DNA from: Chamaesiphon sp.
Lineage (GTDB): Bacteria > Cyanobacteriota > Cyanobacteriia > Cyanobacteriales > Chamaesiphonaceae
Assembly (NCBI GenBank): GCA_965246715.1
Contig: CBDFFH010000022.1
Span: 96,001 to 160,000 of the forward strand
Direction of reading: 5' to 3'
Length of the DNA: 64,000 nucleotides
Position 1 is the first letter of the stretch; every line of letters begins with the position of its first letter. Under the pieces are notes generated by a model. It had not been told where the DNA came from and made no database searches. It was given only the letters and a program-made list of their open reading frames with translations. Shown piece by piece: positions 6,953 to 61,911 of this stretch. Both the position numbers and the translations under genes were made by a program.

Positions 6953-7133
6953 GGCGTTGCTGAATATGGGTATAATTTTTGTAGGGGTGCTCCTGTCTTG
7001 TCGTTTTTTTATTCGGGGGGAACCCCCGAATAAAAACGCCGCTTGTGGGTACCCTGAATCGATGCGGGGTAAGCACGAGGCATTACCCCTACAAAAATTG
7101 TTTGTGCGTTTCATACATTAATTCAGCAACGCC
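6953..7133. mobile_element. MITE family B, inserted in a partial family A element ending at 7287
   Basis: TIR GGCGTTGCTGAAT / ATTCAGCAACGCC; 8-bp TSD CAAAAGTT; near-identical to 55548-55729. Confidence 0.9.
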
Positions 7134-7312
7134 CAAAAGTTCTCTTCAGAGAACTGCCCAATTGATTAGTTCGTTGAAACGAACTTTTGCTATTAGCCCG
7201 TTGGCAAAGCCTCTCGGAACAAGACACTTATAGTTCAGGGCGGTGCTTGAACGGAGCAAATCAATTTTCCTTATCCCGCACTCACGTTAACTAACCTTGT
7301 CGTCGCTAAAAT

Positions 7313-7355
7313 TAAAAGCTCGTATTCCTCCGTTAGTCAGGAGTGCGGGCTTTTA
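7313..7355. terminator. imperfect hairpin downstream of tyrS
   Basis: TAAAAGCTCGTATTCCT...AGGAGTGCGGGCTTTTA. Confidence 0.45.
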
Positions 7356-7390
7356 GGGTGCGAGCGGGTCGATATCTAGATACTAACCCC

Positions 7391-8629
7391 CTAGCTAACT
7401 AACTTTTTAAACCGTTTTTTCCCAACCTGCAATACCTTCCCGACTAATTGCCCAGCATCATCATAGGCAGTTTCGATATCACTAATTGCTACCCCATCCA
7501 ACTTCACCGCACCACCCTGAATCTGGCGTTTGGCATCATTGCTACCCGTACACAATCCGCTCGCCGCCAGAATTTGGAACATCTTCGTGGGAAAATTGAC
7601 AGAGCCGATCGAAAATTCGGGAATACTCTCGCCACCAGCATTTTTACCAGGTTTGGTAATCAACGCGATCGCATCGGCTTGGGCTTGTAATGCTTGTTCC
7701 CGTCCGTGGTACTGGGTGACTACCTCTAGCGCGAGGAGTTTCTGTGCCTCTCTGGGGTTCTCCGGCAGTCGATCGAGTGGTAAGTCAGTCAGCAGAGTAG
7801 AATAATCTTTGATGAGGCTATCGGGCGTTTTCTCGAGCTTAGAGTACATACTCAGCGGATCTTCGCCCATCCCGACATAATTATTCAGCGATTTGGACAT
7901 CTTTTGCACGCCATCGGTACCGAGCAAGATCGGCATCAACAGTCCAAATTGCGGCGTTAGTCCGAAATGCTTTTGGAGATCGCGTCCGACGACAAGATTG
8001 AATTTCTGATCGGTACCGCCGAGTTCGACATCGGCTTTGATTGCAACTGAATCATAGCCTTGCATGAGGGGGTAGAGAAATTCGTGGATGAAGATCGGGG
8101 TTTCTTTGGCATACCGGAGTGCAAAGCCTTCTTTGGCAAGCATCTGTCCCACTGTCATCGTCGAGAGCAATTCGAGCGTTTCGCCGAGATCGAGCGGGGA
8201 TAGCCATTCGGAATTGTAGCGAACTTCCAATCGTCCGGGTGTATCGAAATCTAGGATCGGTCGCACGCGATCGAGGTATGCTTGGGCATTAGCCGTCACC
8301 TGTTCCACGGTTAATTGCTTGCGGACTTCCGATTTGCCCGTCGGATCGCCGATCCGAGCGGTAAAGTCGCCGATGATTAATACCGCAGTATGTCCGGCAT
8401 CTTGGAAAGATCTGAGCTTCCGCAGGGGAATACTATGACCTAGATGGATATCTGCGCCAGTCGGATCGATGCCGAGCTTGACTCGCAACGGTCGATTGGT
8501 TGTCGCTAGCCGCTGGGCTAGATTTTCAGCCGGATCGGTAGAATTGGGCTGATGGGGAAAAATCTCAGTTATGCCCCGAAATAACCAATCGAACCGATCT
8601 GATGTAGGCACGGATACACTCGCAGTCAT
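7391..8629 (-). CDS. tyrS: tyrosine--tRNA ligase
   Basis: HLGH and KMSKS motifs, GGTDQ, C-terminal S4 domain. Confidence 0.97.
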
Positions 8630-9084
8630 AGGATGAAAATCAAACGGGATCTGAAAATAGTCGCAGGTTAAGCTTATTATAGTTACTACAGAAACTGAAA
8701 TATTTTTACACGCTTTTTAACTGTCGTTAACATTTTGAGCTACCAATCGACCTAAAGGTGCTGTCGATCGTCTACGATTGCATTGATGTCGATCGATCCC
8801 CAATTAATTAAATCGAGATTTACACTGTGGCAATCGCGACTTATCATCTTTAGAATCCCCGTTATCGACTAGCTTGCCAATCTTACACTTTGCCCTAGTT
8901 CGAGCGATGCGATCGAGAGAGACTACGCCAACGAGATGTAAATTCAGTATAGTTCCTAAATTATTGAGAGCAAAAGATCCCAACCGATCGATGGCAAGTC
9001 CACTAACGATTTAACTGCGATGAACGGCTCGGTTTACAACCAGCACTCATCATTAATCATCCATCATTCTGCGGAGCCTTACTA

Positions 9085-11013
9085 GTGTCTTCTAGAGCTG
9101 TAAACAAAAAGAAACCCAACCCCAAACTCAAGCCAAACGATCGCCCGCCAAAGAAAGGTAATTTTTTTGGCGGCATCGGCCAAATTGCTGGCGGCACGAT
9201 GCTGGGTGTCACGATGTTGGTTAGTTCGATCGTGGCTGGGGGATTGGTGGGGCTAGCGATTAGCTTCCGCAACTTGCCTGACGTGCGCGTCCTCCGCAGT
9301 TACGCACCGACGGAAACAACTTATATTTATGATGTCAACGGTGTCGAACTTGCCAGCCTCCACGATGAAGCCAATCGCGAAGTTGTCCCGCTCAATCGGA
9401 TTTCACCATATTTAAAACGTTCGTTACTAGCGATCGAAGATAGCCATTTTTACTACCATCAAGGTGTCAACCTGACTGGCGTAGGGCGGGCGGTGGCCGC
9501 GAATTTTAAGAAGGGTGGCGTGAGCGAAGGTGGTTCGACGATCACGATGCAGTTGATCAAGAACTTATTCCTCTCCCAAAAACGCCAATTCAGTCGGAAA
9601 TTAGCTGAAGCCGTCCTCTCTATTCGGCTCGAGCAGATTTTCCGCAAAGACGAAATCCTCGAAATGTACCTCAATCAAGTCTATTGGGGTCACAATAACT
9701 ATGGGGTCGAAACTGCCTCTCAGAGCTATTTTGGCAAACATGCATCCGAACTCAACCTTGCTGAGGGCGCAATGATGGCTGGAGCGATTGCTGCACCCGA
9801 GCGATACAGTCCCTTTGTCAATATGAAAGCAGCAAAGAAACGTCAAGGTGAGGTGCTGACGAGATTACGCGAGCTGAACTGGATTACGATCGAAGAGGAG
9901 AAAAAAGCCAGAGATTATAAAATCAAGCTCGGTAAAATTAAAACTTGGCAGACGAGCAAATTACCGTTTGTGACCGATGCTGCGATCGAAGAACTCAATC
10001 AACGTTTCGGCAGGGAAACCGTCCGTAAAGGCGGGATGCGAATTCAGACCACGATCGACTATAACTTCCAAATCGCCGCTGAAAAGAATATTCAAAATGC
10101 ATACGAGCGGTTGGGACGCAATAAATATCAGATTGCGCTAGTTGCGATCGATCCGCGCACGCATTTTGTCAAAGCGATGGTGGGTGGGGTCGATTACAAA
10201 AAAAGTAGCTTCAACCGCGCCATTTACGCCAACCGTCAACCCGGTTCGTCGTTCAAACCGTTTGTTTATTACACCGCCTTTGCCACGGGTAAATTTACCC
10301 CCGAATCTACAGTCTACGACTCACCCGTCCGGTATCGCGATGGTAATGGCTACTATGCACCGCGCAACTATGGCGGCGGTTATTCTGGCCCGATGAGCAT
10401 TCGGAATGCCCTGATGGTCTCAGCGAACGTCCCCGCCGTGAAAATGGGGAAAGAAGTCGGACTAGATAAAGTCATCCAAACCTGTCGGATGCTGGGAATT
10501 AAAAGTCCGATCGAACCCGTCGTATCGCTACCATTAGGGGCGGTGGGGATTACCCCGATCGAAATGGCAAGTGCCTTTGCCACCTTTGCCAGCAACGGTT
10601 GGCAATCAGAAACTACTACGATCTTGCGTGTCACCGATAGCGATGGCAATATCCTCTTAGATAATACGCCCAAGCCAGAACAAGTACTCAACCCCTGGGC
10701 TACCGCTCAAATCAATAGCGCACTCCAATCAGTCGTCAACGGTGGTACTGGTAAAGAGGCCGCACTCGGTCGTCCGGTCGCCGGAAAAACCGGAACCACC
10801 TCTTCCGAACGCGATGTCTGGTTTGTGGGCTACGTGCCCCAGCTAGCTGCCGCTGTGTGGATCGGCAAAGATGACTTTACGCCGCTCGGTCAAGGTGTAA
10901 CGGGTGGTACCTTTGCCGCACCAATCTGGCGCAACTTCATGCGCGAAGCACTCGTAAACGAACCCGTAGAGGCATTCCAGTCTCCAGCCAAGTTCAAACG
11001 ACCAGGAACTTAG
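9085..11013 (+). CDS. class A penicillin-binding protein (PBP1A family)
   Basis: Transglycosylase motifs EDSHFY and GGSTITMQ; transpeptidase motifs SSFK, SAN, KTGT. Confidence 0.95.
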   Translation: MSSRAVNKKKPNPKLKPNDRPPKKGNFFGGIGQIAGGTMLGVTMLVSSIVAGGLVGLAISFRNLPDVRVLRSYAPTETTYIYDVNGVELASLHDEANREVVPLNRISPYLKRSLLAIEDSHFYYHQGVNLTGVGRAVAANFKKGGVSEGGSTITMQLIKNLFLSQKRQFSRKLAEAVLSIRLEQIFRKDEILEMYLNQVYWGHNNYGVETASQSYFGKHASELNLAEGAMMAGAIAAPERYSPFVNMKAAKKRQGEVLTRLRELNWITIEEEKKARDYKIKLGKIKTWQTSKLPFVTDAAIEELNQRFGRETVRKGGMRIQTTIDYNFQIAAEKNIQNAYERLGRNKYQIALVAIDPRTHFVKAMVGGVDYKKSSFNRAIYANRQPGSSFKPFVYYTAFATGKFTPESTVYDSPVRYRDGNGYYAPRNYGGGYSGPMSIRNALMVSANVPAVKMGKEVGLDKVIQTCRMLGIKSPIEPVVSLPLGAVGITPIEMASAFATFASNGWQSETTTILRVTDSDGNILLDNTPKPEQVLNPWATAQINSALQSVVNGGTGKEAALGRPVAGKTGTTSSERDVWFVGYVPQLAAAVWIGKDDFTPLGQGVTGGTFAAPIWRNFMREALVNEPVEAFQSPAKFKRPGT

Positions 11014-11239
11014 CGGGATAAGAGGAGTTATGAATTACCCGATCGTCAGTTAGGCTCAGCTTATAACTCAAACGATGGTAATATGCTGAAATCGATGCGG
11101 CGGGAAGTTCTCACCCTATTTCATCTCTTGAATGAACCTGCTCGAATAGTAAAAATAGTTGTCAGGGATTTTCCAGTCAAATAAGGAATCCACTCACATC
11201 AGAGGTTTCAGCATTTCAGCTCCTATAGGGACTTGCTTG

Positions 11240-11383
11240 TCAAATAAATTTTGATGAATTTTTGGCGTTAGGGTAGATTTGCCAAACCCACACGTTCGTA
11301 TCAACGAGAAAGATATCTGATTGCTGTGGGCGATCGAAAACAATATCAATTACCTCCGCTTCAACATTGAGATCGATCGTCAT
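11240..11383 (-). pseudogene. PIN-domain protein N-terminal fragment (47 aa)
   Basis: Hand translation MTIDLNVEAEVIDIVFDRPQQSDIFLVDTNVWVWQIYPNAK..; FLVDTN is PIN-like. Confidence 0.55.
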
Positions 11384-11386
11384 AGT

Positions 11387-11653
11387 CTAGAAGCTGGCGG
11401 CATATTGTTCCATAACGGAATCGACTGTACTCAGTCCGATCCCTCTGCTAATGGTTTTGATTGCGGTACTGTTTCCAGTTTGAAACGCCCATTCTAGGGC
11501 TTGGGCTGAATCTAACGATCGATTTTGAGGTAGAGATCGAACGTTATTGGCGATGCCCTGCCCAAAATCAACAATGGTTAGGTGTAGCTCTTTCTTTGTG
11601 GGGTAGTTTTGCCCGCAACTGAACACACCAAGCGAGGAGTTGCTATGTTCAAA
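11387..11653 (-). pseudogene. HATPase / anti-sigma-kinase-like fragment
   Basis: FEHS...IVDFGQGI...GNST...RGIGL; 5' part cut off by an IS remnant. Confidence 0.65.
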
Positions 11654-11855
11654 CCTACATTCCGCTAGTTGAATAGGTCGTCAAAGAATTAAAATAGAAG
11701 CTCAACCCAAGCCAGAGTGGAAAGAGGTCATCATCAATTCAGTAATTAGCGTAGAAAATCTAGACCATCTGGGCATCGTGGCGGGATTGGTAGATGAAAT
11801 CGGCATAGTCGAGATCCTCAACAAAAGACTAGGCATAGATCCCAGAGAGAATGTC
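11654..11855 (+). mobile_element. IS1634-family left end with transposase N-terminal fragment
   Basis: From 11733 translates to INSVISVENLDHLGIVAGLVDEIGIVEILNKRLGIDPRENV (DUF4277-like); ATC where a start codon is expected; putative end CCTACATTCCGC. Confidence 0.75.
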
Positions 11856-12155
11856 TCGCTCAATTAATAAATCGACTACCTCATTTGAGTCTTGTTTATA
11901 AGCATACACAGCCATATTCAGTAAAGTATAGCCATCGTCATTCCTAGCATTAAGATCGAAACCCCGATCGAGATATTCTTTGATAATTTTAGGATCTCGA
12001 CTGCGAGCCATTGTGGCAAATGGTTCTTTAGAAGCAATACCTAGTTGTGATAAGAAAAAATACTTATAGCTATCGAAAATACCGATAGCGATCGCCCCAA
12101 CGATTAACAATTTAATCGAACTGGATAATTTTTGAATTGGATTGAGCATATTCAA
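11829..12155 (-). pseudogene. ankyrin-repeat protein, 3'-truncated
   Basis: GFDLNARNDDGYTLLNMA...VVDLLIER, then runs into the IS remnant. Confidence 0.65.
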
Positions 12156-17702: not shown

Positions 17703-18066
17703 ACCCAAGTTGCTACCTAACGTGAGTTCGGGTTAAAGATGTCCACTTAATGACTCCTAGCTTCGTTTCTGAACCGCCCTCAAATGAATTTGCGGATGGA
17801 ATCGCGCTGAGGTTCCCTCAGCGTGCGTTCCACCAAGCGGGGCTAATAGCAAAAGTTCGTTTCAACGAACTAATCAATTGGGCAGTTCTCTTGAGAGAAC
17901 TTTTGCTATTAGCCCGAACTTATAGTTCAGGGCGGTGCTTGAACGGAGCAGATCGATTTTCCTTATCCCGAACTCACGTTACCTACACTCACAGCGGCAA
18001 CAACCGAACTTTGCAGAATTAGCCACGATTTCAATCGTTGGCATTCTGGTAGGTAGCAACTGGGGT
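17703..18066. mobile_element. MITE family C containing a nested family A copy (17720-17979)
   Basis: Outer ends ACCCAAGTTGCTACC / GGTAGCAACTGGGGT; inner element flanked by TACCTA on both sides. Confidence 0.85.
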
Positions 18067-18686: not shown

Positions 18687-19826
18687 CTACTCGACGATCG
18701 CCTCAATAATATCGCGTGCCATATCGTCCCAAGTATGACGACGCAACGAAGTTGAGAGATCGATCGCCTGTTGGCAATAGTAGGGATACTGCTGTTGCCA
18801 TCCATACAACCGTTTGACGAGATCTTCAACATTATTGGCATCTGGGAGGAGCAGATCTTGCAGTTGGGTCGAGTAGCGTTCGGCGACTCCAGCCGTCGCT
18901 GTGGTCAGCGCCGGAAGACCGCAACATAAAGCTTCGTGTACTCCCAATCCATATGCCTCGTAACGCGTTGGTGCTACCAAGCAATCCGCCGCGCGGAGAA
19001 TCGAGGGTACATCGCGGCGAAAGCCCATAAACTCAATCCGATCGCTCAAACCCTCAGCTTGGGCGCGTTGTTGCCACAGTGGGAGTTCGGCACCGACACC
19101 GATGACGACCAGATTGGCATTCCAATTGGGATCTGTACAGAGTTGTTGCCACGCCCCAAATAACGTATCGAAACCTTTGCGTCGATCGCCTAAAGCACCG
19201 ATAAAAGTGACGATCGGGCGATCTAGATCCCAGCCATATTCCAATCGCAATTGTTCGCGTTCGGCAGCGGCGGCAGGATAGAACACAGTGGAGTCGATGC
19301 CATAATAAATTGTCTTGACTTTACTCGGTTCGAGATCGAGTAAATCGATGAGGTGATTTTGGGTCAGGAGCGAGTTGGCGATTGCGATTCTCGCACCTTG
19401 GAGGGCGACACGTTCGGTGCGGAGTGACAGTTGGCGATCTAATTGTTGTTTTAATTTGGCAGCGATGCCCATGCGACTGTCGGGTTGATAGGCAGCGTGA
19501 ACGTAATGTACCCAGTTGATATCTGGATACGGACAATTACCGCCGTTGGCAATCGTGTATGCGTCGGGGTTGCTGCTGAATCGATCGCCGATTTTAACAC
19601 CTGCGCTCGCCAAGCGAGGCGCACCTAAAAAATAGGAATTCAACGGTTTTGGCACCTGATGGACGGTGACAGTCGATCGATCTGCCAGTGCTGGATCGAC
19701 GCGATGGGCGACGAGATCGAGCGGATAACCTTGACGGGCGATATAGTCGGCCAACGCATAGTTGGCGCGATCCATGCCACCAGTGGGCACGAAATCGCCA
19801 GTAACGATCGAGAATTGAGTAGTCAT
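18687..19826 (-). CDS. GT4-family glycosyltransferase
   Basis: GGMDRAN, RKGFD, YEAYGLGVHEA. Confidence 0.9.
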   Translation of the reverse strand: MTTQFSIVTGDFVPTGGMDRANYALADYIARQGYPLDLVAHRVDPALADRSTVTVHQVPKPLNSYFLGAPRLASAGVKIGDRFSSNPDAYTIANGGNCPYPDINWVHYVHAAYQPDSRMGIAAKLKQQLDRQLSLRTERVALQGARIAIANSLLTQNHLIDLLDLEPSKVKTIYYGIDSTVFYPAAAAEREQLRLEYGWDLDRPIVTFIGALGDRRKGFDTLFGAWQQLCTDPNWNANLVVIGVGAELPLWQQRAQAEGLSDRIEFMGFRRDVPSILRAADCLVAPTRYEAYGLGVHEALCCGLPALTTATAGVAERYSTQLQDLLLPDANNVEDLVKRLYGWQQQYPYYCQQAIDLSTSLRRHTWDDMARDIIEAIVE

Positions 19827-20022
19827 CTTAAAATATCCTTAATCAATTTAGTAACTTTTTCGTGTCGATCTTCGAGATTAAATTCGGCGATTTCGCTAAT
19901 AATTTGTTGCTGTAACGATCGAAAATTGAGTAGTCATCTCAAAATATCCCCAATAAATCTAGTAACTTTTTCGCGCTGATCTTCGAGATTAAATTCAGCG
20001 ATTTCGGTCGGAATGTATTGCT
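19801..20022. repeat. diverged 111-bp tandem duplication of a gene junction
   Basis: GTAACGATCGA.AATTGAGTAGTCATCT.AAAATATCC.. at 19801 and 19912. Confidence 0.9.
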
Positions 20023-33741: not shown

Positions 33742-36700
33742 CTAGCTAGGATTGGTGCGGATCCATAATGGCGCAGAACGAGCCAGCATTAACCAGCTAC
33801 CAGTGCCAGTTACATAACCGATTTCGGTTAGATAACGCCGTTCGCTCTGGGCGATCGGTAATTCTAAATCCCATGCCGAATCATTACATTCAAACTCTTG
33901 AAAAGTTGTCGGTAACTCGACATTTGGATCGACATCAGTAACATCATAAAGACGCACTACCAACTTTTGACCGCCCTGTTCCCGCAATTGCCGTTTGAGC
34001 CGTACGGGGATTTCCCAATGCGTATAAGCTTGAGTTGGATTGGCAGAAACTAGGGTAATTTGACCTTCGCTATAAAGATTGCCAGAAAGTTCGCCACTGC
34101 GATCGACTGCTGCCGGATCTATCCCTGCGAAGAAAGATTGGAATGCTTGTCCGGCTCCGGCTGCTGCAGCTGCGCCACCAGCTAATGCCGCACCACCACC
34201 TGCTAAAGCGGCACCGCCCATCCCTTTGGCATCATCGAGAAAACCAGTAGATTTTTCGGTTAGCGTGTCAAAAAAGCCGCTTGGATCGGGCTTTTGATTG
34301 TCTTTTTCGATATCCCCTGTTTCTTCACCGAGTAAATCCGATAAACCAGCAAATGGATCGTCGTCTAAACTGTCGAAATCGATCGCTTCTAAATCGCGAT
34401 CGAAGGTATCCAGTTCGGGATTGCGTGATTCTAACTCTGAGATCTCTGATTTGTTGCCACCAAACAATGCGGCACCACCAGCGATCGTTGCGGCTCCAGC
34501 TGCGCCGACTGCGGCTCCACTACCTGTAAAGAAGTCCCCAGCTTTGTCGGTTAAATCGCCGAAGGGGTCACTATCAAGGTCGAAGTTGATGCCTTCAGGC
34601 ATTAAATCCGCAGCTTTGTCCTGGAGTTCGCCAGCTTTGTCTTTAACTGAGTCGAGCGGATTTGACAGATTGAATGGGTCTGGGTTGGCACTATCGCCTG
34701 GTTCTTCCAACCAGAGTCCTTCCGAGATATCTTCTGCTGTTTGACCGCCGAAGAAGTTGCTGACTGATTGACCCGCACCGCCTGCCAAGGCAGCACCCCC
34801 AGCGATCGCGGCACCGCCTGCAGCAGTAGCGGCTGCACCACCATCTTTAAAGAAGTCGCCAACTTTATCTAAAGGATTGTTTGAAGTACCCTCGGGGAGC
34901 AGATCGCCAATACCTTCAAATGAAGAAAAATCGACATTGCCGTCGGGAATTAGCTCTTCAGGCTGGCTTTGGATGCCACCAGCCAACAGATCCGCATCGT
35001 CGGGTGTTTCGAGGCTCAGATCGGCTGACTCTGGCTGGTCGTAACCGCCAAAGAGATTACCAACTGCGTTCCCAGCACCCCCAGCTAAGGCTGCGCCACC
35101 TGCTAGCGCTGCACCACCGAGTGCAGCGGCATTTGCACCACCATCGGCGATCGCATCGCCGACTTTATCCCGAACGCCATCTAATGGATTCTTGAGATCG
35201 AGATTTGGGAGGAGGTTAGAAGATTTATCCGTCAACCCTTCGAGTGGGTTGGAGAGGTCTGGAGTTGCGATTTCTGGCGGGTGCAGTTCGCCTACTGGCT
35301 CGTTCGCACGGTCGAACATGCCTTTACCGATTGCAGCTGCGGCTGCGGCTCCACCGGCGATCGCCGCTCCACCTGCGAGGTTGATATCGTTGGCTTTGTC
35401 TTTAACCGAATCGACTACGCCATTAAAATTAACGTTGGGGGTATTTAAATTGGGTCGTGGCGGTAAAGTACCGGACAGATCGCCCGATCGTAAGTCACCC
35501 GATCGCAGATCGTCTGCCGGCCGGAAGCCACCCAATCCTGAAGATAAGTCGCCAGATAAGTCGCCGGACAAACCATCACCTCGAGATGTCCGCGATGGTG
35601 GTGGTGGATACAGTGGTTTGAGTCCTGGTGGTTGTTCGGGAGTGGTTGTTACTGCCGATCGAGGTGGCTCTTCGGTGGGTTTCTTCCGTCCCAATAGCCA
35701 TAACAATCCACCGCCGATCGCCAATAAAGGTAAGATCCACCACGGGAATCCACCTTTTCCGGCGGTGGTAGTGGTGTTGGTCGTGGTCGTGGTCGTAGCA
35801 GCCGGTTCGCTACTGGGAGTAGTCGTTGGAATGGTTCCCGTAGTCTCGGTACCAGTAGTTCCAGTGGTGCTAGTTCCAGCTCCAGTGGTAGGAGGTGTGG
35901 TGCTAGTCGCTTCAGTTCCAGTGGTGGTAGTTGTTGTAGTGTTAGGCGTTGTGGCTACAGCTCCAGCCGCGATCGCTTCTTTGACTGCTGTTTGACCGGA
36001 GGTATCGCTGACATATCCGAGAAATGCCTTAGCGCCATCGCTAACTTTGCCGCCTTGATTTTTGTAGGCGTAAGCAAGCGGCTGAGAGAAGGGATATTTA
36101 GGATTGTCCGGTTGGGTGCTATGAAGCGTAACGGCTCTAATTCCGGGAATATTTTTGATTTGGTCGGCGGGTGCATACCCGATCCCATCCTCGCCTAATT
36201 TATCGACGACTGCTTGAGTAGAGTCTTCAGTCAGTTTTTGGGCATTACTCCCAGTTCTAAGCTTACCATTTTGAAATACTGGGTAATTAGCAAACGCACG
36301 CCGCGTATCACTAGTCTCAGGTCGATCGATCACTTTGATTTTGCCCTTAGCACCATTGGCACTAGGCAACTGCGACCAATCTGTTACTTCACCCCGATAA
36401 ATCTTGGCAAAATCTTTGAGGGTGAGATTGCCTTTATACGGGTTAGTGTCTTTGACAATAATCGCGATCTTGGATCTACCGATTGTCTTCGCCGCTAGAC
36501 CTTGAGCTTTTTCGGTTTTGGTAAGCGGACGGCCGATCCCTGCCAGATCGGCTTTGTTTGTTTCAACTGCTTTAATGCCGCTGTCGCTGCCCTGATACTG
36601 TGTCGGTATGGTGACATCAGCACCTGGAAATTGCTTTTGAAACCGCTCTTTGAGGCCTTGATTGACAGCTTGCATACTGCTAGAACCATCAATTTGCACT

Positions 36701-36840
36701 TTGGTGCCAGCAGCCACAGATGTAGGCAATGGGAAATTATCGGCAGCCGTTTGGGCGCTAGCATTGAGGCTAGTGCCGCCAGATGCTAATATCAGTGCTA
36801 GAGTTACGATCGAACTACTTTGCTGTTTCATTAATAACAA
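33742..36840 (-). CDS. PstS-like substrate-binding domain / TM / repetitive linker / DUF4912-like C-terminal domain
   Basis: Signal peptide, IDGSSSM and RPETSDTR; TM FPWWILPLL; C-terminal AYTHWEI..VRLYDVT..EIGY..LARS. Confidence 0.8.
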   Translation of the reverse strand: MLLMKQQSSSIVTLALILASGGTSLNASAQTAADNFPLPTSVAAGTKVQIDGSSSMQAVNQGLKERFQKQFPGADVTIPTQYQGSDSGIKAVETNKADLAGIGRPLTKTEKAQGLAAKTIGRSKIAIIVKDTNPYKGNLTLKDFAKIYRGEVTDWSQLPSANGAKGKIKVIDRPETSDTRRAFANYPVFQNGKLRTGSNAQKLTEDSTQAVVDKLGEDGIGYAPADQIKNIPGIRAVTLHSTQPDNPKYPFSQPLAYAYKNQGGKVSDGAKAFLGYVSDTSGQTAVKEAIAAGAVATTPNTTTTTTTGTEATSTTPPTTGAGTSTTGTTGTETTGTIPTTTPSSEPAATTTTTTNTTTTAGKGGFPWWILPLLAIGGGLLWLLGRKKPTEEPPRSAVTTTPEQPPGLKPLYPPPPSRTSRGDGLSGDLSGDLSSGLGGFRPADDLRSGDLRSGDLSGTLPPRPNLNTPNVNFNGVVDSVKDKANDINLAGGAAIAGGAAAAAAIGKGMFDRANEPVGELHPPEIATPDLSNPLEGLTDKSSNLLPNLDLKNPLDGVRDKVGDAIADGGANAAALGGAALAGGAALAGGAGNAVGNLFGGYDQPESADLSLETPDDADLLAGGIQSQPEELIPDGNVDFSSFEGIGDLLPEGTSNNPLDKVGDFFKDGGAAATAAGGAAIAGGAALAGGAGQSVSNFFGGQTAEDISEGLWLEEPGDSANPDPFNLSNPLDSVKDKAGELQDKAADLMPEGINFDLDSDPFGDLTDKAGDFFTGSGAAVGAAGAATIAGGAALFGGNKSEISELESRNPELDTFDRDLEAIDFDSLDDDPFAGLSDLLGEETGDIEKDNQKPDPSGFFDTLTEKSTGFLDDAKGMGGAALAGGGAALAGGAAAAAGAGQAFQSFFAGIDPAAVDRSGELSGNLYSEGQITLVSANPTQAYTHWEIPVRLKRQLREQGGQKLVVRLYDVTDVDPNVELPTTFQEFECNDSAWDLELPIAQSERRYLTEIGYVTGTGSWLMLARSAPLWIRTNPS

Positions 36841-45600: not shown

Positions 45601-45871
45601 ACCTGAGTTCGGGATAAGAGGAGCCTGGAGACTGAAGTCTCGGCTCATGATGCGAAGTCCGCCTGTCTTGAAAAAGTGCGGTCTTGGGGAAAACCCAAGA
45701 CCGCACTTTTCGCTTCGCGGACTAAGATATTCAGTCCGCCTTCGCGGACTTCGCACTACTAGCACCGATTTGCGGTGCGCGCTCGTCGGGTTTCCCGACG
45801 TAAAAAGCGCAACAAGACACAATCGAGTGCGGTGCTAATGCGGAGCCAATATCCTTAAGCCGAACTGACGT
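45601..45871. mobile_element. MITE family A carrying two micro-element insertions
   Basis: ACCTGAGTTCGGGATAAG / CTTAAGCCGAACTGACGT; flanks TATCTA and TAGCTA. Confidence 0.85.
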
Positions 45872-45877
45872 TAGCTA

Positions 45878-46090
45878 ACGTCAGTTCGGCTTAAAGATGT
45901 CCACTTAATGACTCCTAGCTTCGTTTCTGAACCGCCCTCAAATGAATTAGTTGCTCATAGCAAAAGTTCTCTGAAGAGAACTGCCCAATTGATTAGTTCG
46001 TTGAAACGAACTTTTGCTATTAGCCCGAACTTATAGTTCAGGGCGGTGCTTGAACGGAGCAGATCGATTTTCCTTATCCCGAACTCACGT
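45878..46090. mobile_element. MITE family A
   Basis: TIRs present; TAGCTA on both sides; body similar to 17720-17979. Confidence 0.9.
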
Positions 46091-46141
46091 TAGCTAACAA
46101 GTTACTTTTGTTGAGTTTTTTTAAAACAAGATTATTGTAAA

Positions 46142-49015: not shown

Positions 49016-49405
49016 CTTGTATCCCAAAGGAAGGTCAAAGAGTAAAATCTGCGATCGCTTGTCAACAGCAAAAGGCAAAGGGAAATTCGGATTGCCCCTA
49101 GGGACACTAAGCCCGTTAGTGTAGATCGAATCACCTGAGTCTAGACAGTGGTACCAGTCAAAACTGGACAGTATCAGCGGTCGCCAGCTCGTCGATCGGG
49201 TAAACCTGCATTTAATAAGGATAGTTTATCGCCACTAATTGCGGTTGAAGTGGTTCTTTAGCACACAGAAACTAGAGATGAGTAGTTCAAACCAAGAGTT
49301 AGATATACTCGGCATCGACATTCGCAAAGCCAAATTTGCGACCAAAATCGCGCTAAGGTCTTCTCAGCGTGCGTTTTGCTCAAGACGACGTAGCTTTGCT
49401 CTCCA
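49016..49405 (+). mobile_element. IS110-family left end plus truncated transposase
   Basis: CT core + TGTAT junction; ATG at 49278 gives MSSSNQELDILGIDIRKAKF|DVALL after removing 49338-49386. Confidence 0.8.
49050..49240 (+). ncRNA. putative IS110 bridge RNA
   Basis: Guide-like ATTGCCCCT (49091-49099) and GTGTAG (49119-49124); donor guide ACAGTATC (49168-49175) and AATAAG (49214-49219) within an AAACTG/TAGTTT stem; ends approximate. Confidence 0.7.
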
Positions 49406-49445
49406 GATACTCCCAGCACGTCCAAATCTCGAAACTCCTAAACCA

Positions 49446-50267
49446 ATGCCTACAAACCCAATTGTCACCGCTGCATGGCTTCACGATCGATTATGCGATC
49501 CTACCGTTGCACTAGCAATCATAGATTGTCGATTTGCACTGGCAGATCCGGATCTCGGGCGACAGCAGTATGCAGCCGCCCACATTCCCGGCGCACACTA
49601 CATGGACTTAAATCGCGATCTGTCTAGTCCCGTCCGCGAACATGGCGGTAGACACCCATTGCCTGACGCTCGGGTCTTCGGGGACAAATTAGCCGCGATC
49701 GGGATTAACGATCGAACATTAGTTATCGCTTACGATGATTCGCGCTTTGCCTTTGCCGCACGCTTGTGGTGGTTGTTGCGTTATTACGGACACGATCGCG
49801 TGGCGGTATTAGATGGTGGTTATGACAATTGGGCAAAAGCGGGTTATTCGGTGACTGCGGAGCTGCCAGCACCAGCCGAACGCGGCAATTTTCAGCCCCA
49901 ACCTCAGCCAGCGCGAATCGTTGATATCGCCGCAGTCAAATCGCTCCTGCATTCATCAGCGCATGTGCTGGTAGACTCCCGGGAACCCGATCGCTATTTA
50001 GGTAACACCGAACCGATCGATCCCCGTGCCGGACATATCCCCAGCGCGGTCAATTATCCCTGGCAAGCTGTTTCTACACCAGATGGATTCGTGTTACCTG
50101 TCGATCGACACCGCGAGCGGTGGGCGACAATTTCGCCAGATGTGGAACCGATCGTCTATTGCGGTTCGGGCGTGACAGCTTGTGTCAATCTCTTATCGCT
50201 AGAACTTGCTGGCATCACGCGATCGAAGCTCTATCCTGGGAGTTGGAGTGACTGGTGTTCTTATTAG
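49446..50267 (+). CDS. sulfurtransferase (SseA / tandem rhodanese)
   Basis: HIPGA, GRHPLP, YCGSGVTAC, YPGSWSDW. Confidence 0.93.
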   Translation: MPTNPIVTAAWLHDRLCDPTVALAIIDCRFALADPDLGRQQYAAAHIPGAHYMDLNRDLSSPVREHGGRHPLPDARVFGDKLAAIGINDRTLVIAYDDSRFAFAARLWWLLRYYGHDRVAVLDGGYDNWAKAGYSVTAELPAPAERGNFQPQPQPARIVDIAAVKSLLHSSAHVLVDSREPDRYLGNTEPIDPRAGHIPSAVNYPWQAVSTPDGFVLPVDRHRERWATISPDVEPIVYCGSGVTACVNLLSLELAGITRSKLYPGSWSDWCSY

Positions 50268-55547: not shown

Positions 55548-55729
55548 GGCGTTGCTGAATATGGGTATGATTTTTTGTAGGGGTGCTCCTGTCTTGTCGT
55601 TTTTTTATTCGGGGGGAACCCCCGAATAAAAACGCCGCTTGTGGGTACCCTGAATCGATGCGGGGTAAGCACGAGGCATTACCCCTACAAAAATTGTTTG
55701 TGCGTTTCATACATTAATTCAGCAACGCC
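55548..55729. mobile_element. MITE family B
   Basis: TIR GGCGTTGCTGAAT; 8-bp TSD CTCTCTAA. Confidence 0.9.
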
Positions 55730-56227: not shown

Positions 56228-56810
56228 ATGAAAACTAACTCGCTTGTCTCTCTCATTTGCTGTCTGACTGTTAACGGCATCAATTCTTGTTATCAGCCAG
56301 CTGTAGCTCGATCGTTACCGCAACCAAGCCACATTGCAGAAGTTCTGACTTCCACACGGCAGAGTGCTAGTGAGACACATAAAGTTGTGATAGTTCAAGA
56401 AGGCGAGAAGTATAGTTATGGTGATGCTGAGGGTTATGAAATAACCGAGGCGAAATTTGACAACACCTACAAATTTCTGGATGGGTTAGCAGCGGTCAAA
56501 ATTGATGGTAAATAACGTCAGTTCGGGATAAGGAAAATTGATTTGCTCCGCTTAAGCACCGCCCTGAACTGGAAGTGTCTCGTTCCGAGAGGCTACGCCA
56601 ACGGGCTAATAACTCAAGTTCTCTGAAGAGAAATGCCGAATTGATTAGTTCGTTTTAACGAACTTTTGCTATGAGCAACTAATTCATTTGAGGGCGGTCT
56701 GGAAACGAAGCGAGGAGTCATCGAGCGGCAATCCTTATCCCGAACTGACGTTAAATAGGTCTTTATTAATAGCGGCAAGAATACCGTAATTGCGATGCAA
56801 TGAATTATCA
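56228..56810 (+). pseudogene. WG/KWG-repeat protein interrupted by a MITE
   Basis: KFLDGLAAVKIDGK|*VFIN; signal-peptide-like start. Confidence 0.65.
56515..56751. mobile_element. MITE family A
   Basis: Perfect TIR ACGTCAGTTCGGGATAAGGA; TSD TAAATA. Confidence 0.92.
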
Positions 56811-56935
56811 GCATGGTATGTAGTCACCTGCGTTCTGAATTATTGTTAAAAACGATGCTGACGATACATTTGCAAGCAACGGTATTAATATCAGTCCCAA
56901 AATAGTAATCGATCGCTAGTAAATTTCCAAGCTAT

Positions 56936-57574
56936 CTAAAACTGAGCGGCGATCGAAATACTTTTAATTAGCTCATTTTTAGTCAATAACTCTTCCAGCT
57001 GTAAATAGGCAGAGATCGACTCAGTTGTTATTTCGTGTTGCTGCTTGTGCTGAAATACCGATAGCGTCGTGAGAATAGTCAGCACATCTCGCGGCTTGAG
57101 CGGGACAAAATTACCACCGATGTCCTTAGATAATAGCTTCGGTAAACAAGTTGGTAACTGCTGCACATTGGTCATCAAGTCGCGTTGCCGGAGCAAGCAC
57201 AGTCGATCGAGTCCAAAATCCTTGTAAACTAATAGGCGAGTACAATCCTCAGTCACCACTTCAAAATCTGACGAGGTTAAAATGCAAATTCCCAGATGCA
57301 CTTGAATTTTAGTGGGTAGCCGACAGACTAATTTAAAATCAATTAAACCCTGATTGCGTCCGGGGGGATAAATCCGATCGAGTCCTTCGATTTTGACATC
57401 AGCGATCGTCCGACCAACTAGGAATGATAAACATAGTAGTAATCCAGCCGCGATTTTCTCTTTATCATCGATCGCGATTGATAGCTCTGGGATTAATACT
57501 TGGCGCTCGACAGCAAAAGCGGCGCTGGTTTTTTGGAGATCTGAGATCGATCTAGAGGATTCTGGACTAGTCAT
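56936..57574 (-). CDS. hypothetical protein
   Basis: 212-aa ORF; no family recognised with confidence. Confidence 0.6.
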   Translation of the reverse strand: MTSPESSRSISDLQKTSAAFAVERQVLIPELSIAIDDKEKIAAGLLLCLSFLVGRTIADVKIEGLDRIYPPGRNQGLIDFKLVCRLPTKIQVHLGICILTSSDFEVVTEDCTRLLVYKDFGLDRLCLLRQRDLMTNVQQLPTCLPKLLSKDIGGNFVPLKPRDVLTILTTLSVFQHKQQHEITTESISAYLQLEELLTKNELIKSISIAAQF

Positions 57575-57673
57575 TTTAATTTACGATTCAGCATTATCCG
57601 AGACATTGAAGGCGAAAATTGACTAAAAAGTCTTTAAACTAGGATTAAAGATCGAATACCACGCTTAGGCAAC

Positions 57674-58345
57674 ATGACAGAATCAAAATCGGCACAGGAA
57701 TTATTTCAGGCTGCTTACGAAAATCGTTATACATGGGAGCCTAATTTCCCTGGTTATACGGCAACAGTCGAATTAAAACAGGGAAATGAAATATTCACTG
57801 GTAAAGTCTCCGTCAAATCCAATCTGAGTGCGGAAGTAACTGGCATCGATAATGAAGAAGCCTGTAACTCCATTATCGGCCAACTGCGCGAAGTCGCGAT
57901 CCACCGCGTCCGTCGTAGTTTTGCGGAAACCCACGGTAAAAATACCTTTAGCTATGGCGAAACCGATGCCACAGGTGCCGTAGAAATCCTCATGGGCGGC
58001 AAATCCGCAGGCGATCGTTATAAACTGCGGAATAATGAAGTCTGCCACGTTCATCGCCATATTCATGGGATTATGGTGACGATCGATACCTTTAGCAGTC
58101 ACGATACAGGTGCCGGTTATCTATCGCATCGTTACGATTCAGTATATGCCGATCCAGTAACTGGCGAAATCAAAAGCGGCAAGATCGTTTTTGAAGATAA
58201 CTACCAAGCTGTCGGCGGTTTCCAAATCCTCAGCCAACGTATTATCGAGGCTGTCGAAAACGGACAACCCACTACTACTGAGTTTAACTTCTCTGATATC
58301 GAGTTATTAGCCGAGCGAGTAGAAGCTGTCGCCGCTACTGCCTAA
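57674..58345 (+). CDS. DUF3386-family protein
   Basis: AAYENRYTW..FPGY..HRVRR.F..THG. Confidence 0.8.
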   Translation: MTESKSAQELFQAAYENRYTWEPNFPGYTATVELKQGNEIFTGKVSVKSNLSAEVTGIDNEEACNSIIGQLREVAIHRVRRSFAETHGKNTFSYGETDATGAVEILMGGKSAGDRYKLRNNEVCHVHRHIHGIMVTIDTFSSHDTGAGYLSHRYDSVYADPVTGEIKSGKIVFEDNYQAVGGFQILSQRIIEAVENGQPTTTEFNFSDIELLAERVEAVAATA

Positions 58346-58375
58346 ATATCTGGTGTCGTCCAGTTAAATTATGTA

Positions 58376-58554
58376 ACCCAAGTTGCTACCTAGCAATGCC
58401 TACGATTAAAATCGGGGCTAATAATCCAAAGTCCGCGTAGGCGGACTGGTTTATTAGTCCGAGTAGGCGGGCTTTTGCCGCGAGCGGCAACAACCGGACT
58501 TTGCATTCTGAGGAGCGGTTTCTAACCGCTTTGGTTATAGGTAGCAACTTGGGT
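58376..58554. mobile_element. MITE family C
   Basis: Perfect TIR ACCCAAGTTGCTACCTA. Confidence 0.85.
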
Positions 58555-58612
58555 TAACGCATAATTCATAATTTATAATTTATTCCGTTGGGTTGTAGGA
58601 GCGTTCTATAAA

Positions 58613-59701
58613 ATGCTGGGATATCTCTTAGCTGTATTGGTAGGTGGGGGTAGCGCGGGTTTGTATATCGCCGCTTTCTTTTTCCCCGAAATTCATCGCA
58701 AGCCAGATTTCATCTGGGGTGGAGTGGGGTTGTTCTATGCGCTGGTGCTGTGGATTTACGCGCCAGAGCTGACGGGTGGCATTTTAGTCGGGCAAGCAGC
58801 TAGTGTCGCATTGCTAGGTTGGTTTGGATGGCAAACTGTCAAACTCCGCCAATTAGTCCCGATCGATTGGCAAACTTCCCTACCCATCACTAAGACTCCG
58901 GAACGTATCGATGCCAAGCAGGCAAATCCAACTCGTAACAAAGCCGCCGCCAAAAAAACGAGCGGATCGCCGGATATATCGCGCCCTACAACAGCAGCAA
59001 CCTCCGCTTCACAAGTCATTGAGCCAGTAGTCGAGCCAAAATCGCCACCTGCTACCCCAGCCGCTAAATCTACGCCCAAACCACTACCTAGCAATGAATC
59101 CGTGCGGGTAGAGATCGCTACGAGTGTACCAGCAAAGCCACCTTCAACCAGAATTATCCCAGACACCTCGATCGAGCAAGATGATGCAGCTTGGATTAGA
59201 TTGGAAGTTAAACCCTCGCCCGATGCTTCTACTTTGATTAAAGAGGTAACTCGATCTGCGCGAAGCGATGCTCCGCAAACTACTCCACCAGCAAAATCAG
59301 CACCAACTCAAGCACCACCAGCCTCAGCCAAGCCTCAGCCCGATCGATCGATTCCCACTCCACCACCACCGCCACCAGCCAAGCCGCAACCGCTTCCAGA
59401 ACAGACAAGCAAACAAGCTAATTCGGTACAAACCTCAGAGGTGGATAAACCGCCAGTTCGATCGGATATAGTCAAACCTGTCGCCGAGATAACGCCACCA
59501 CCTGCACTCTTAGCAGCGGCGAAGCCTTTAGGTGAAGCAACTCAGCCCCCGACAACTCCACCCAAGAAGATCGAAGCTGTACCTGTACCGATCGAACATC
59601 CTCACCTGCAGCAGATTTCACCAACTGCAAATCACAATGCCCCAACCGAGCAAACGGGGGATCTCGATCGACTAATTGCCGAATTAGAGTCTGAGATTTA
59701 G
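58613..59701 (+). CDS. Ycf66-family protein with Pro-rich tail
   Basis: AFFFPEIHRKPDFIWGGVGLFYALVLW. Confidence 0.8.
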   Translation: MLGYLLAVLVGGGSAGLYIAAFFFPEIHRKPDFIWGGVGLFYALVLWIYAPELTGGILVGQAASVALLGWFGWQTVKLRQLVPIDWQTSLPITKTPERIDAKQANPTRNKAAAKKTSGSPDISRPTTAATSASQVIEPVVEPKSPPATPAAKSTPKPLPSNESVRVEIATSVPAKPPSTRIIPDTSIEQDDAAWIRLEVKPSPDASTLIKEVTRSARSDAPQTTPPAKSAPTQAPPASAKPQPDRSIPTPPPPPPAKPQPLPEQTSKQANSVQTSEVDKPPVRSDIVKPVAEITPPPALLAAAKPLGEATQPPTTPPKKIEAVPVPIEHPHLQQISPTANHNAPTEQTGDLDRLIAELESEI

Positions 59702-59763
59702 ACGATTCGCTTACTTGGCATGATTAGAGCGGTAGAGCATCCGGTAGGAACTGATGTTAATTA

Positions 59764-59994
59764 ACCCAAGTTGCTACTTACTAGAATGCCAACGATTGTG
59801 TCTTGAAAAGATGCTCTACTTGGGCAAAGCCCAAGACCGCACTTTTCGCAAATCGTGGCTAATGTTGCAAAGTCCGGTTGTTGCCGCTCGCGGCAAAAGC
59901 CTGCCTACGCGGACTAAAACACCAGTCCGCGTAGGCGGACTTTGCATTACGAGGAGCGGTTTTAACCGCTTTGAGTGTAGGTAGGCACTAATGT
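59764..59994. mobile_element. MITE family C with a degenerate right end
   Basis: ACCCAAGTTGCTAC left end; flanks TAATTA and TAATTG. Confidence 0.75.
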
Positions 59995-60680
59995 TAATTG
60001 GTTAACCCATGCTCTAATGCATAGCGAACTAATTCAGTCCGACTATTAGTACCTGTTTTCCCAAACAGACGACTGACATATTTTTCGACATTGCGCACGC
60101 TGGTTTCGAGTTGCTTGGCGATTTCCTTATTCATCAATCCTGCAGCGACTAGATCTAGGACGCTTTGTTCGCGCGGAGTCAGATCGATCCGAATTGGTGG
60201 CGGAGTTTTAACAATACCACTGGTAGGATTGAGCATTCCGCGCAATTCTGCTGCGATCTGCTTGGCAATCCCTTCCATTTCGGGATTTTGGGAAGCAGCG
60301 ACAGCGACAGTACGACGTTCTAGCAGGTTTTGGACAATCGCGATCAGTTCGTCAGGATCGAATGGTTTGGATAAATAAGCATCGCAACCCGCTTGATAAC
60401 CAGAAATTCGATCGGCTTTCATGCCGCGTGCCGTCAGGAAAATTACTGGAGTTGCCTTAAATCGATCGTCATCCCGCATTTGCTTGAGAAACTGATATCC
60501 ATCCACCTGGGGCATCATCACATCAGTAATCACTAGATCGGGCAACTGCTGCTGCAATAGCTCCCAGGCATCCTTGGCACTACTTGCCACTTGGACGTTG
60601 TACCCGCTATCTTCAAGATAAGCTTGGACTGCTTCGCGCAATCCTGGTTCGTCATCTACCAGTAAAAGTTTACCTGCCAT
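59994..60680 (-). CDS. NarL/LuxR-family response regulator (Ycf29/Rre1-like)
   Basis: Receiver LVDDEPGLR, DVMMP, KPF; LuxR HTH LTPRE..NKEIA. Confidence 0.92.
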   Translation of the reverse strand: MAGKLLLVDDEPGLREAVQAYLEDSGYNVQVASSAKDAWELLQQQLPDLVITDVMMPQVDGYQFLKQMRDDDRFKATPVIFLTARGMKADRISGYQAGCDAYLSKPFDPDELIAIVQNLLERRTVAVAASQNPEMEGIAKQIAAELRGMLNPTSGIVKTPPPIRIDLTPREQSVLDLVAAGLMNKEIAKQLETSVRNVEKYVSRLFGKTGTNSRTELVRYALEHGLTN

Positions 60681-61108
60681 CGTGTTACGTTCCTATGCCC
60701 TTGCAGTCTTCATCTATCTCACTGTAGCAAAACTTGTACGGTTTAAGCCGAACATTGGCAGGAGATGATGGCATTAAGCTCGTTTAGAGTGTCAAGCGCG
60801 ATCTCCAGGCAACAAGACACTACCTAAATCCTATTGCACTATGTCGGTCTGCAGGTCAGTCGTTTGGCGGATTCCGTTTCAATGGTGTTTGGTATGATAG
60901 CAAATAGGTAAGTAAATTTCTTTATTTATCGCGCTATTGTAATTACGATCGCTGTCAATTATTGGCACTGTTGTTATTACTAAGTGTGGCAATCGATCGG
61001 TTGAATCTTCACAACTCGATCTTCCACAGCGGATATTTCGCGAACGCACCAGCAATCGCGCTCATCAATAGCGCGCTCGACGATTCAGATTAAACTCATT
61101 AATTTAGC

Positions 61109-61678
61109 TTGATGCTGCTTGCAACTAAGGCAACTCCGATTTCACTATTGGTCGCAATCTGGAGCTTACGATCCGTACCTATTTGTTTGTTAATGTTAAT
61201 GTTTGTATTCAATAGTGGCAGTATTCCTTCGCCACATCCGAGTTTACACTTTTGGTTCGATACGATCGCGGTTGCGGGGATTGTCAGTATTATCGTCTAC
61301 TGGGGTCGGCAACAACGCCTACATTGGAATGTCAGTTTAGTTATTTATTTATATATTTTCCTGGTTTTATTGCTGCGCGATCCATATGGAATTTTGACTG
61401 CGGCTAGCAGTGGCAATCTCGCCACGATCGATTGGCAATCCCTATTTAGTAGTTTAGGGGTGGCACTAGGAATTTTTGGTAGTGGGATGCTCGTTGAAGT
61501 CTTAATTTCCCATCTGCGCCAATCCAAAGTTTGGGCGTGGTGGCTGGCACTAATTATCTCAATTGCTTATGTCGCGAGTATCGTGTTCTTTTTTTCAGGC
61601 ACACTAGGCATCTGGAGTTTATTCGACACCGATACCAAACGAATGTTTAAGCGAGCGGTTCGTTATGCCCGAGACTAG
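61109..61678 (+). CDS. hypothetical membrane protein
   Basis: About 5 hydrophobic segments; start uncertain. Confidence 0.6.
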   Translation: MMLLATKATPISLLVAIWSLRSVPICLLMLMFVFNSGSIPSPHPSLHFWFDTIAVAGIVSIIVYWGRQQRLHWNVSLVIYLYIFLVLLLRDPYGILTAASSGNLATIDWQSLFSSLGVALGIFGSGMLVEVLISHLRQSKVWAWWLALIISIAYVASIVFFFSGTLGIWSLFDTDTKRMFKRAVRYARD

Positions 61679-61911
61679 GTAAGTTGTTCGACAGCTAGAT
61701 CGATTTTAGCTGATGGTTTTAGTGACTAGTCACTAGCGATGCGCGCTCCTCGGGTTCCCCGAGGGTTTAGCGCATCAAGACAGTGGCTAGTCATAGTAAA
61801 TATTTGAGGATTATTTGCGAGCTTAATAATCGACTGTCGAACGATCGATTTGAATGCCTGTCAGCTTACACACGGCAGAATTAGCGGAGATCGATAAATC
61901 GAGTGGATTAA

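What the first reader, a model, noticed from the sequence alone, without database searches (positions are those of the whole stretch)
6994..61782. ~50-nt TGTCTTG-[variable hairpin]-CGC micro-element that inserts without a clear target duplication
Seen at 6994-7042(+), 55590-55638(+), 45664-45713(+), 59799-59849(+), 45772-45819(-), 61736-61782(-), 49338-49386(-) and, degenerate, 17792-17838(-). The ends are conserved, while the internal stem sequence differs but base-pairing is kept. Empty-site versions exist in the window (AGTCCGCC|TTCGCGGACT near 63216; GATTG|AAATC near 63190), and removing the 49338 copy restores the IS110 reading frame. Most copies sit at the apex of other palindromes. Inference: a structure-conserved tiny mobile element, about twice the 21-27 nt size of described cyanobacterial SDRs, perhaps moved by an HUH/Y1 enzyme or an RNA-based route.
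Basis: partly seen in the sequence, partly recalled or inferred. Interest (0 to 1): 0.75.

Follow-up and report, generated by a model that had tools for sequence, protein, structure and literature searches.

The report
Tiny capped hairpin jumping DNA
A gene-less DNA hairpin of about 50 bases sits in roughly 150 copies in this cyanobacterium, inserted cleanly into repeats, genes and its own copies, and relatives with the same or swapped end pieces occur in many other cyanobacteria; it is likely moved as single-stranded DNA by an enzyme not yet identified.

Summary
Real and recently mobile. All eight copies are at the stated coordinates; the genome holds about 150 (47-52 nt). Both stems covary; the ends and a GG-RNR-CC tip are fixed. 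Insertion is blunt: 49 of 113 flank pairs rejoin exactly elsewhere in the genome, and 10 of 47 alignable copies in a close relative are exact element-length indels. Copies nest in REP-type repeats, heptamer arrays, genes (in frame) and themselves. Corrections: the 17792 copy belongs to a second cap type; only 44% of sites are at a hairpin tip; the IS110 is a short remnant. The same bodies carry three interchangeable caps across cyanobacteria: TGTCTTG, TGCTTGG, and a 45-nt ACG...CTC type common in Nostoc relatives whose cut is shifted 3 nt on a similar target motif. No mover was found: Y1 genes are not flanked by the element, IS110 does not track it, and there is no strand bias. Best guess: single-stranded transfer by an HUH/Y1-type enzyme acting in trans (0.45); an RNA route is the main rival. 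Closest known: cyanobacterial SDRs (paper not readable here). This scan found what looks like the same family twice before, on other DNA.

The parts
6994..7042 (+). Element, TGTCTTG cap, 49 nt, in a GTAG-type REP host; identical to 55590 within a repeated 159-nt composite
   Evidence: exact empty host in genome
17792..17838 (-). Element of the second cap type (TGCTTGG...TCCGC), lacking its first T, in the repeat type that flanks Y1 gene L001
45664..45713 (+). Element, 50 nt, near-perfect hairpin, in the loop of an AGTCCGC...GCGGACT host; shared with G011, where the tip sequence differs (T-rich)
45772..45819 (-). Element, 48 nt, at the G|A hot spot of the CGATTG|AAATCG host; shared with G011
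49338..49386 (-). Element, 49 nt, lacking its first T, inside an IS110 5' remnant; shared with G011
55590..55638 (+). Element, 49 nt, second copy of the 6994 composite; G011 has a different composite at this place
59799..59849 (+). Element, 51 nt, at the G|A hot spot; the whole host composite is absent in G011
61736..61782 (-). Element, 47 nt, in a short heptamer array; G011 lacks it plus one 7-nt unit
63190..63233 (+). Empty host repeats (junctions 63194|63195 and 63223|63224), of the type that flanks Y1 gene L002
49013..49401 (+). IS110 5' remnant (non-coding left end and first codons), a target of the element; reads in frame into the rhodanese ORF ending at 50267

Best explanation
This is a gene-less 47-52-base hairpin element with fixed end caps that has been inserted precisely, without target duplication, at many sites, and it is likely moved as a single-stranded DNA unit by an HUH (Y1/RAYT-type) enzyme encoded elsewhere. 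Shown: the anatomy (5-6-nt 5' tail, outer stem, asymmetric internal loop, 7-bp inner stem, purine triloop, 2-3-nt 3' tail), blunt insertion, recent gain or loss, nesting, and cap exchange between bodies. Inferred: the folded strand is cut at both ends, closes into a ~50-nt circle with a C|T junction, and is joined into single-stranded, often hairpin-forming, target DNA. Also inferred: hot spots such as G|A arise where resident RAYT enzymes already cut their own REP-type repeats, and many copies then spread passively with those hosts.
For: No TIR or TSD, and asymmetric ends. The element's ends would join as C|T, and C|T is the commonest target junction (48 of 76 distinct TGTCTT sites; C|A or C|T in 17 of 19 TGCTTG sites). 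C|T and C|A are the TnpA-REP cut sites, and group 2 REPs are 20-50-nt bulged hairpins behind a short tail (PMC8266576, passages). Excision of single-stranded circles and action in trans are proposed for REPs (PMC3333891, passages). Main hosts are the repeats that flank this genome's Y1 genes L001, L002, L003, L005 and L006. One host site carries 8 different element bodies. Targets are enriched near hairpin loops (44% vs 25%) and between convergent genes (41 of 137 intergenic copies vs 465 of 2662 gaps). There is no bias to transcription direction (40 vs 42). Tips are purine triloops in about 130 of 150 copies.
Against: Only 1 of 22 Y1 loci has a copy within 200 nt (the 30 further Y1 loci were not scanned). 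Y1 genes occur in element-poor genomes too. The published guide rule applied to CTTG predicts C|A, but the main cap type gives C|A at only 2 of 76 sites, with G|A 11 and A|T 6. No replichore bias in two near-complete chromosomes (p 0.68 and 0.86), though GC skew is too weak here to locate forks. The 45-nt sister type has its conserved target bases 3' of the cut, which one simple guide model does not explain. Strand evidence from mismatches is mixed: inner stem 8 G-T vs 1 A-C, outer stem 9 A-C vs 0 G-T. The triloop's closing pair is G-C, and GNA stability depends strongly on the closing pair (PMC3201870, search listing only).
Confidence: 0.45

Rival explanations
1. The element moves through RNA: a transcript folds into the conserved structure, is cut out or recombined at its ends, and is copied back into DNA by a borrowed reverse transcriptase. 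This is the kind of route recalled as proposed for SDRs.
For: G-T pairs are tolerated on the capped strand (8 vs 1 in the inner stem; 11 of 13 at pair 2 of the TGCTT type). 4 of 99 resolvable junctions lack the 5' T. RT matches were more numerous in three element-rich genomes (22, 6, 53) than in two poor ones (2, 2) (five genomes, not a test).
Against: No orientation link to flanking genes (40 vs 42). No long 5' truncations, tails or TSDs. No copy within 2.5 kb of 9 RT loci examined. No Rfam family matches. Triloops rather than GNRA tetraloops.
Confidence: 0.25
2. No dedicated enzyme: host replication or repair excises folded hairpins and captures them at nicks or stalled forks, and copy number grows through host repeats.
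For: No partner gene was found. Tip inversions (about 11 of 150) and perfected hairpins look like template switching. Many other small hairpin modules behave alike in this genome.
Against: The ends are exact and the same two caps recur with unrelated bodies in several families. Bursts are lineage-specific (26 of 26 in g1, 0-2 matches in 9 of 10 sister-genus genomes). Both fit a specific recogniser better.
Confidence: 0.15
3. An IS110 bridge recombinase moves it through a CT core.
For: C|T is the commonest junction. The reverse strand of the cap shares 8-9 nt with the right end of both IS110 families in the genome.
Against: G|A, A|T, T|T and C|A junctions lack a CT core. That IS110 end is absent from element-rich G020 and G336 and common in family f26, where the cap-A pattern is mostly at background level.
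Confidence: 0.04
4. It is not mobile itself, only a variable part of larger repeats that move.
For: 23 of 47 alignable G011 copies differ from G000 by a larger indel that often includes the host. Some composites repeat 8-11 times.
Against: Exact element-only indels between orthologous sites, insertions in genes without a host repeat, and the same element in many unrelated hosts.
Confidence: 0.04

Closest known systems
Small dispersed repeats SDR1-8 of Nostoc punctiforme and relatives (Elhai et al. 2008, Genome Res 18:1484, PMC2527708; not held, content recalled except one passage on SDR5 in PMC4390886)
   Same: Cyanobacterial, gene-less, precise insertion, structure kept by compensatory changes, nesting in heptamer arrays, other repeats and itself, mover unknown.
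   Different: 47-52 nt (45 nt for the sister type) against 21-27 nt as recalled; two stacked stems with exchangeable end caps; not confined to HIP1. Sequence identity to SDR1-8 could not be checked.
REP/BIME/REPIN with TnpA-REP (RAYT) (PMC8266576, PMC3333891, PMC6006769, PMC3116915, PMC3733652; passages read)
   Same: Size, bulged hairpin behind a short conserved 5' tail, C|T and C|A junctions, enrichment between convergent genes.
   Different: No GTAG/CGTC tag, no flanked RAYT gene, moves as one exactly bounded unit, inserts into REPs and in frame into genes, guide rule not obeyed by the main cap.
IS200/IS605 and their non-autonomous PATE derivatives (PATE recalled; IS200/605 rules from PMC6006769 passages)
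   Same: No TIR, no TSD, hairpin ends, strand asymmetry.
   Different: One hairpin rather than separate left and right hairpins; no fixed 4-5-nt target; no replichore bias detected.
Side-hairpin insertions in the Nostoc trnL intron P6b (PMC4476775, passages; earlier 'Nostoc iterated sequence' reports recalled only)
   Same: Short hairpin insertions at recurring positions of heptamer-repeat stems in Nostoc.
   Different: Their sequences were not seen (no motif hit in 4 supplement files held as text), so identity with the 45-nt sister type is untested.

Membership tests
SDR (Elhai 2008) | Length 21-27 nt (recalled) | tested here: not met
   47-52 nt in G000; 52 nt in g127; 43-48 nt sister type
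SDR (Elhai 2008) | Precise insertion shown by filled and empty alleles | tested here: met
SDR (Elhai 2008) | Nesting in itself, heptamer arrays and mini-elements; compensatory changes | tested here: met
SDR (Elhai 2008) | Sequence or structure identity to SDR1-8 | not testable with these tools
   paper not held
REP/RAYT | GTAG or CGTC tetranucleotide 5' of the hairpin | tested here: not met
   5' tails are TGTCTT or TGCTT before the stem
REP/RAYT | Copies flanking a cognate Y1 gene | tested here: not met
   1 of 22 Y1 loci has one copy within 200 nt; the flanks are the host repeats
REP/RAYT | Bulged stem-loop of 20-50 nt | tested here: met
REP/RAYT | Cut site set by guide pairing (C|T, C|A) | tested here: inconclusive
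   C|T 48 of 76 and C|A or C|T 17 of 19, but the rule predicts C|A for CTTG and only 2 of 76 fit
REP/RAYT | Cleavage by TnpA-REP in vitro | not testable with these tools
   needs bench work
IS200/IS605 and PATE | Separate left-end and right-end hairpins | tested here: not met
   single hairpin
IS200/IS605 and PATE | Fixed 4-5-nt target 5' of the insertion | tested here: not met
   only C at -1 (51 of 76), C or T at -3 (62 of 76), A or T at +1 (75 of 76)
IS200/IS605 and PATE | Lagging-strand orientation bias | tested here: inconclusive
   no bias found, but skew too weak to place forks
MITE of a DDE transposase | Terminal inverted repeats | tested here: not met
   ends are unpaired and unlike
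MITE of a DDE transposase | Target site duplication | tested here: not met
   exact rejoin 49 of 113; one extra T 2, one extra C 1; extra 7 or 14 nt only in heptamer arrays
IS110 bridge-RNA substrate | CT core at both junctions | tested here: not met
   28 of 76 distinct sites are not C|T
IS110 bridge-RNA substrate | Co-occurrence with the IS110 sharing the cap-like end | tested here: not met
Known structured RNA (Rfam 15) | Match at gathering score | tested here: not met
   0 in the window; none on the element in 8 loci, the one gathering-level hit being a neighbouring tmRNA

The most novel reading that the evidence does not exclude
A cyanobacteria-wide class of ~45-52-nt single-hairpin transposons in which a swappable end cap sets where the target is cut (after or before the same C-N-C-W motif), moved by an enzyme or pathway not yet described: a minimal, scarless insertion system that needs only a folded 50-mer.
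Probability: 0.3. Interest if true: 0.85.

Novelty: new variant of a known kind. Interest (0 to 1): 0.58.

Why it matters
How gene-less DNAs under 60 bases insert precisely in bacteria is an open question (SDR movers are unknown, as recalled). This family gives exact ends, a covariation-supported fold, three cap types on shared bodies with different cut positions, orthologous filled and empty alleles, and lineages with and without bursts. That is what a cleavage assay and a gene-profiling search need. It also shapes genomes: about 150 copies, in-frame 16-17-codon inserts in ORFs for CobN, MutS2, Pnkp and transposases, and its tip is itself a frequent target of a DDE insertion sequence.

Tried and rejected
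Autonomous partner: 118 half-matches outside full copies were, on reading, nested, damaged or interrupted copies or chance matches; those enclosing an ORF were an unrelated DDE insertion sequence with its own inverted repeats and ~11-bp duplication. Genes with copies on both sides were housekeeping genes or that IS. Y1 and RT presence did not separate element-rich from element-poor genomes cleanly (five genomes each). The IS110 right-end likeness did not track the element. Orientation against genes, GC skew and replichores gave nothing. The covariance model found only 2 of 140 other cyanobacteria, but only 42 candidates per genome were scored; patterns later showed more, so that blank is a sensitivity limit. 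Viral contigs: 0 matches to a long pattern; 0 of 120 loose matches had the fold (that scan covered 12 of 64 parts). Plasmids: no match to one copy. Sequencing runs: no RNA holder listed. Contigs of three runs showed joints skipping exactly 49 and 51 nt at two window copies, but these may come from paralogous empty hosts and are not counted; no circle junction was among the 15 joints shown (71 more not shown). Literature searches that found no description of this element. Sequence look-ups in earlier findings were blank or irrelevant.
Full report
Setting. The window is G000:C22:96001-160000 of a 6.1-Mb genome. HIP1 occurs 2789 times, which marks it as cyanobacterial (inference from established knowledge). 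Intergenic DNA is full of nested repeats.

Observation. All eight copies are as described. A structural scan found 152 candidates genome-wide, 134 with the leading T, against 29, 18 and 12 (11, 2 and 4 with T) in three order-5 Markov genomes. A stricter scan gave 159 hits. I dropped 11 by a tip and length filter and restored 2 of them that were plainly real, giving the set of 150 used from then on. The covariance model confirmed 132 of 150 scored candidates. Interrupted and damaged copies add more.

Anatomy. The element has a 5' tail (TGTCTT or TGCTT), an outer stem of about 7 bp opening with an invariant G-C pair, an asymmetric internal loop, a 7-bp inner stem, a triloop and a 3' tail (GC or CGC). 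On 50 distinct copies, 6 of 7 inner pairs show double changes, and 92% of cells pair against 65% in shuffles (0 of 500) and at most 59% when slid; relatedness inflates such counts. Outer pairs 3-6 are Watson-Crick in 175 of 184 cells for 46 TGTCTT representatives (shuffled mean 76, maximum 102). The evidence is weaker for 13 TGCTT representatives (41 of 52; mean 28, maximum 41). Pair 2 is a T-C mismatch in 23 of 46. Tips are AAA 66, GAA 51 and AGA 9, with about 11 inverted pyrimidine tips, of 150.

Insertion. Of 113 distinct 10+10-nt flank pairs, 49 rejoin exactly elsewhere in the genome; alternatives with one base more or less fit 0-2 each (the 113 include a few false hits, and unique sites cannot have an empty paralogue). 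Of 99 resolvable junctions, 4 lack the first T. G011 is 92-97% identical over most of the window. From 86 loci covering most of its 92 model hits, 74 copies had enough flank: 27 had no orthologue, 14 were scored shared (one misaligned; one shows an extra nested 51-nt copy in G000), 10 were exact element-length indels (two align to diverged, probably paralogous flanks) and 23 were larger indels. In heptamer arrays the difference is the element plus 7 or 14 nt. I read this as array slippage or deletion between repeat units, not target duplication (inference).

Targets. For 76 distinct TGTCTT sites the junctions are C|T 48, G|A 11, A|T 6, T|T 4, others 7; for 19 TGCTTG sites C|A 11, C|T 6, others 2. 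Hosts include REP-type repeats, the repeats flanking Y1 genes, heptamer arrays, insertion sequences and the element's own tail, internal loop, tip and ends. One host junction carries 8 different bodies, so it was likely hit repeatedly. Sites lie within 1 nt of a predicted hairpin loop in 42 of 95 cases against 141 of 570 control offsets. Among 35 of 79 sites inside a perfect palindrome, 24 are on the 5' side, 2 central and 9 on the 3' side. Thirteen copies fall in crude ORF calls; eight examined are 48 or 51 nt and read through, in Pnkp, MutS2, CobN, two DDE transposases and unassigned ORFs.

Distribution and caps. The TGTCTTG pattern is in 26 of 26 same-genus genomes (14-213 matches) and at 0-2 matches in 9 of 10 sister-genus genomes. 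A second burst is in genus g127 of another family (108-247 matches in four genomes, reversed-pattern controls 3-8). The TGCTTGG cap matches in 13 of 121 genomes, with 42 and 18 matches in two further families; a few single matches there look like chance. One inner body also occurs with different ends, ACG...CTC, as a 45-nt unit. Named records with it are mostly Nostoc, Scytonema, Tolypothrix, Calothrix and Microseira. A looser pattern finds it in 33 of 46 genomes of family f7 and not in G000 or G010. Its 87 distinct sites have C at +1 (74), C or T at +2 (82) and C at +3 (82), and it uses the same kinds of host. The capped type has C at -1, C or T at -3 and A or T at +1. I read these as one C-N-C-W motif cut 3 nt apart (inference). 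Within G000, three bodies are shared between the TGTCTTG and TGCTTGG caps, and the g127 element has the body of a 44-nt sister form inside the TGTCTTG cap.

Mechanism. Blunt ends, no inverted repeats, a folded single strand with a short conserved tail and a C|T junction are the features of HUH Y1 chemistry on REPs (PMC8266576 and PMC3333891, passages). The genome has six Y1 matches, two with the motif of the cyanobacterial subclass 1.2 (PMC6006769, passages; assignment by eye). They are flanked by host repeats, not the element. The guide rule does not predict the main junction, Y1 presence does not separate carriers, and no replication or transcription bias appeared. I therefore give the HUH route 0.45, an RNA route 0.25 and host repair 0.15. 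That the element is a real mobile unit I put above 0.9.

Literature. Elhai et al. 2008 was not held; I saw its citation and one passage on SDR5 (PMC4390886), and the rest is recalled. Passages were read from PMC3733652, PMC3116915, PMC4476775 (plus a term search of 4 supplement files), PMC8266576, PMC6006769, PMC3333891 and PMC3610870 (nothing relevant); PMC3201870 only as a search listing. Searches found no description of this element. Subscription papers, figures and the SDR paper's supplements were out of reach and may describe the 45-nt form. The names PATE and 'Nostoc iterated sequence' are recalled.

Earlier scan notes. Two AI notes on other genomes (e1-8547804, e1-8373354) describe 45-57-nt and 51-nt cyanobacterial hairpins with the same behaviour, probably this family. 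I met them after reaching my reading and do not count them as support.

Verdict. A real, recently active, gene-less micro-element; SDR-like in behaviour, but about twice the recalled size and built from exchangeable caps and bodies; mover unknown. New variant of a known kind; interest 0.58.

Noticed in passing
G000:C49:86899-88440; also C40:38978-40458, C9:142612-144092, C47:165715-167195: A 458-aa DDE insertion sequence (IS4-like by my reading; a paralogue matches PF01609) inserts into the tip of the micro-element or similar palindromes with an ~11-bp duplication; 14 of its 27 ends follow such a tip.
   Followed up: partly
G000:C22:95305-95318 and ten other places: The right ends of both IS110 families share 8-9 nt with the reverse strand of the TGTCTTG cap. 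It does not track the element across genomes; it could still hint at the cap's origin.
   Followed up: yes
G000:C35:27498-27566, C44:125566-125634, C2:10099, C15:196929, C12:1627-1675: Several smaller hairpin modules of about 15-22 nt nest inside the element at fixed places; they look like SDR-sized elements of their own.
   Followed up: no
window 49239-50267: The IS110 remnant plus the inserted element forms an in-frame N-terminal extension of the rhodanese ORF; G011 has the same arrangement but lacks that start codon.
   Followed up: partly
L001 and L002 (G000:C9:115803, C14:4559): Y1 genes with the subclass 1.2 motif are flanked by long repeats found genome-wide, including window 63184-63287 and 45876-46096; the table in PMC6006769 lists no REP for that subclass.
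   Followed up: partly
L106, L109, L112, L113, L132: 51-nt copies appear to sit in frame at the same position of orthologous genes in different species of the family, suggesting some insertions are old (frame read by eye).
   Followed up: no
window 33742-36840: A 1032-aa ORF with many Pro/Ala-rich repeats.
   Followed up: no
window 19801-20022: A 111-nt tandem duplication, 86% identical, across the boundary of two ORFs.
   Followed up: no
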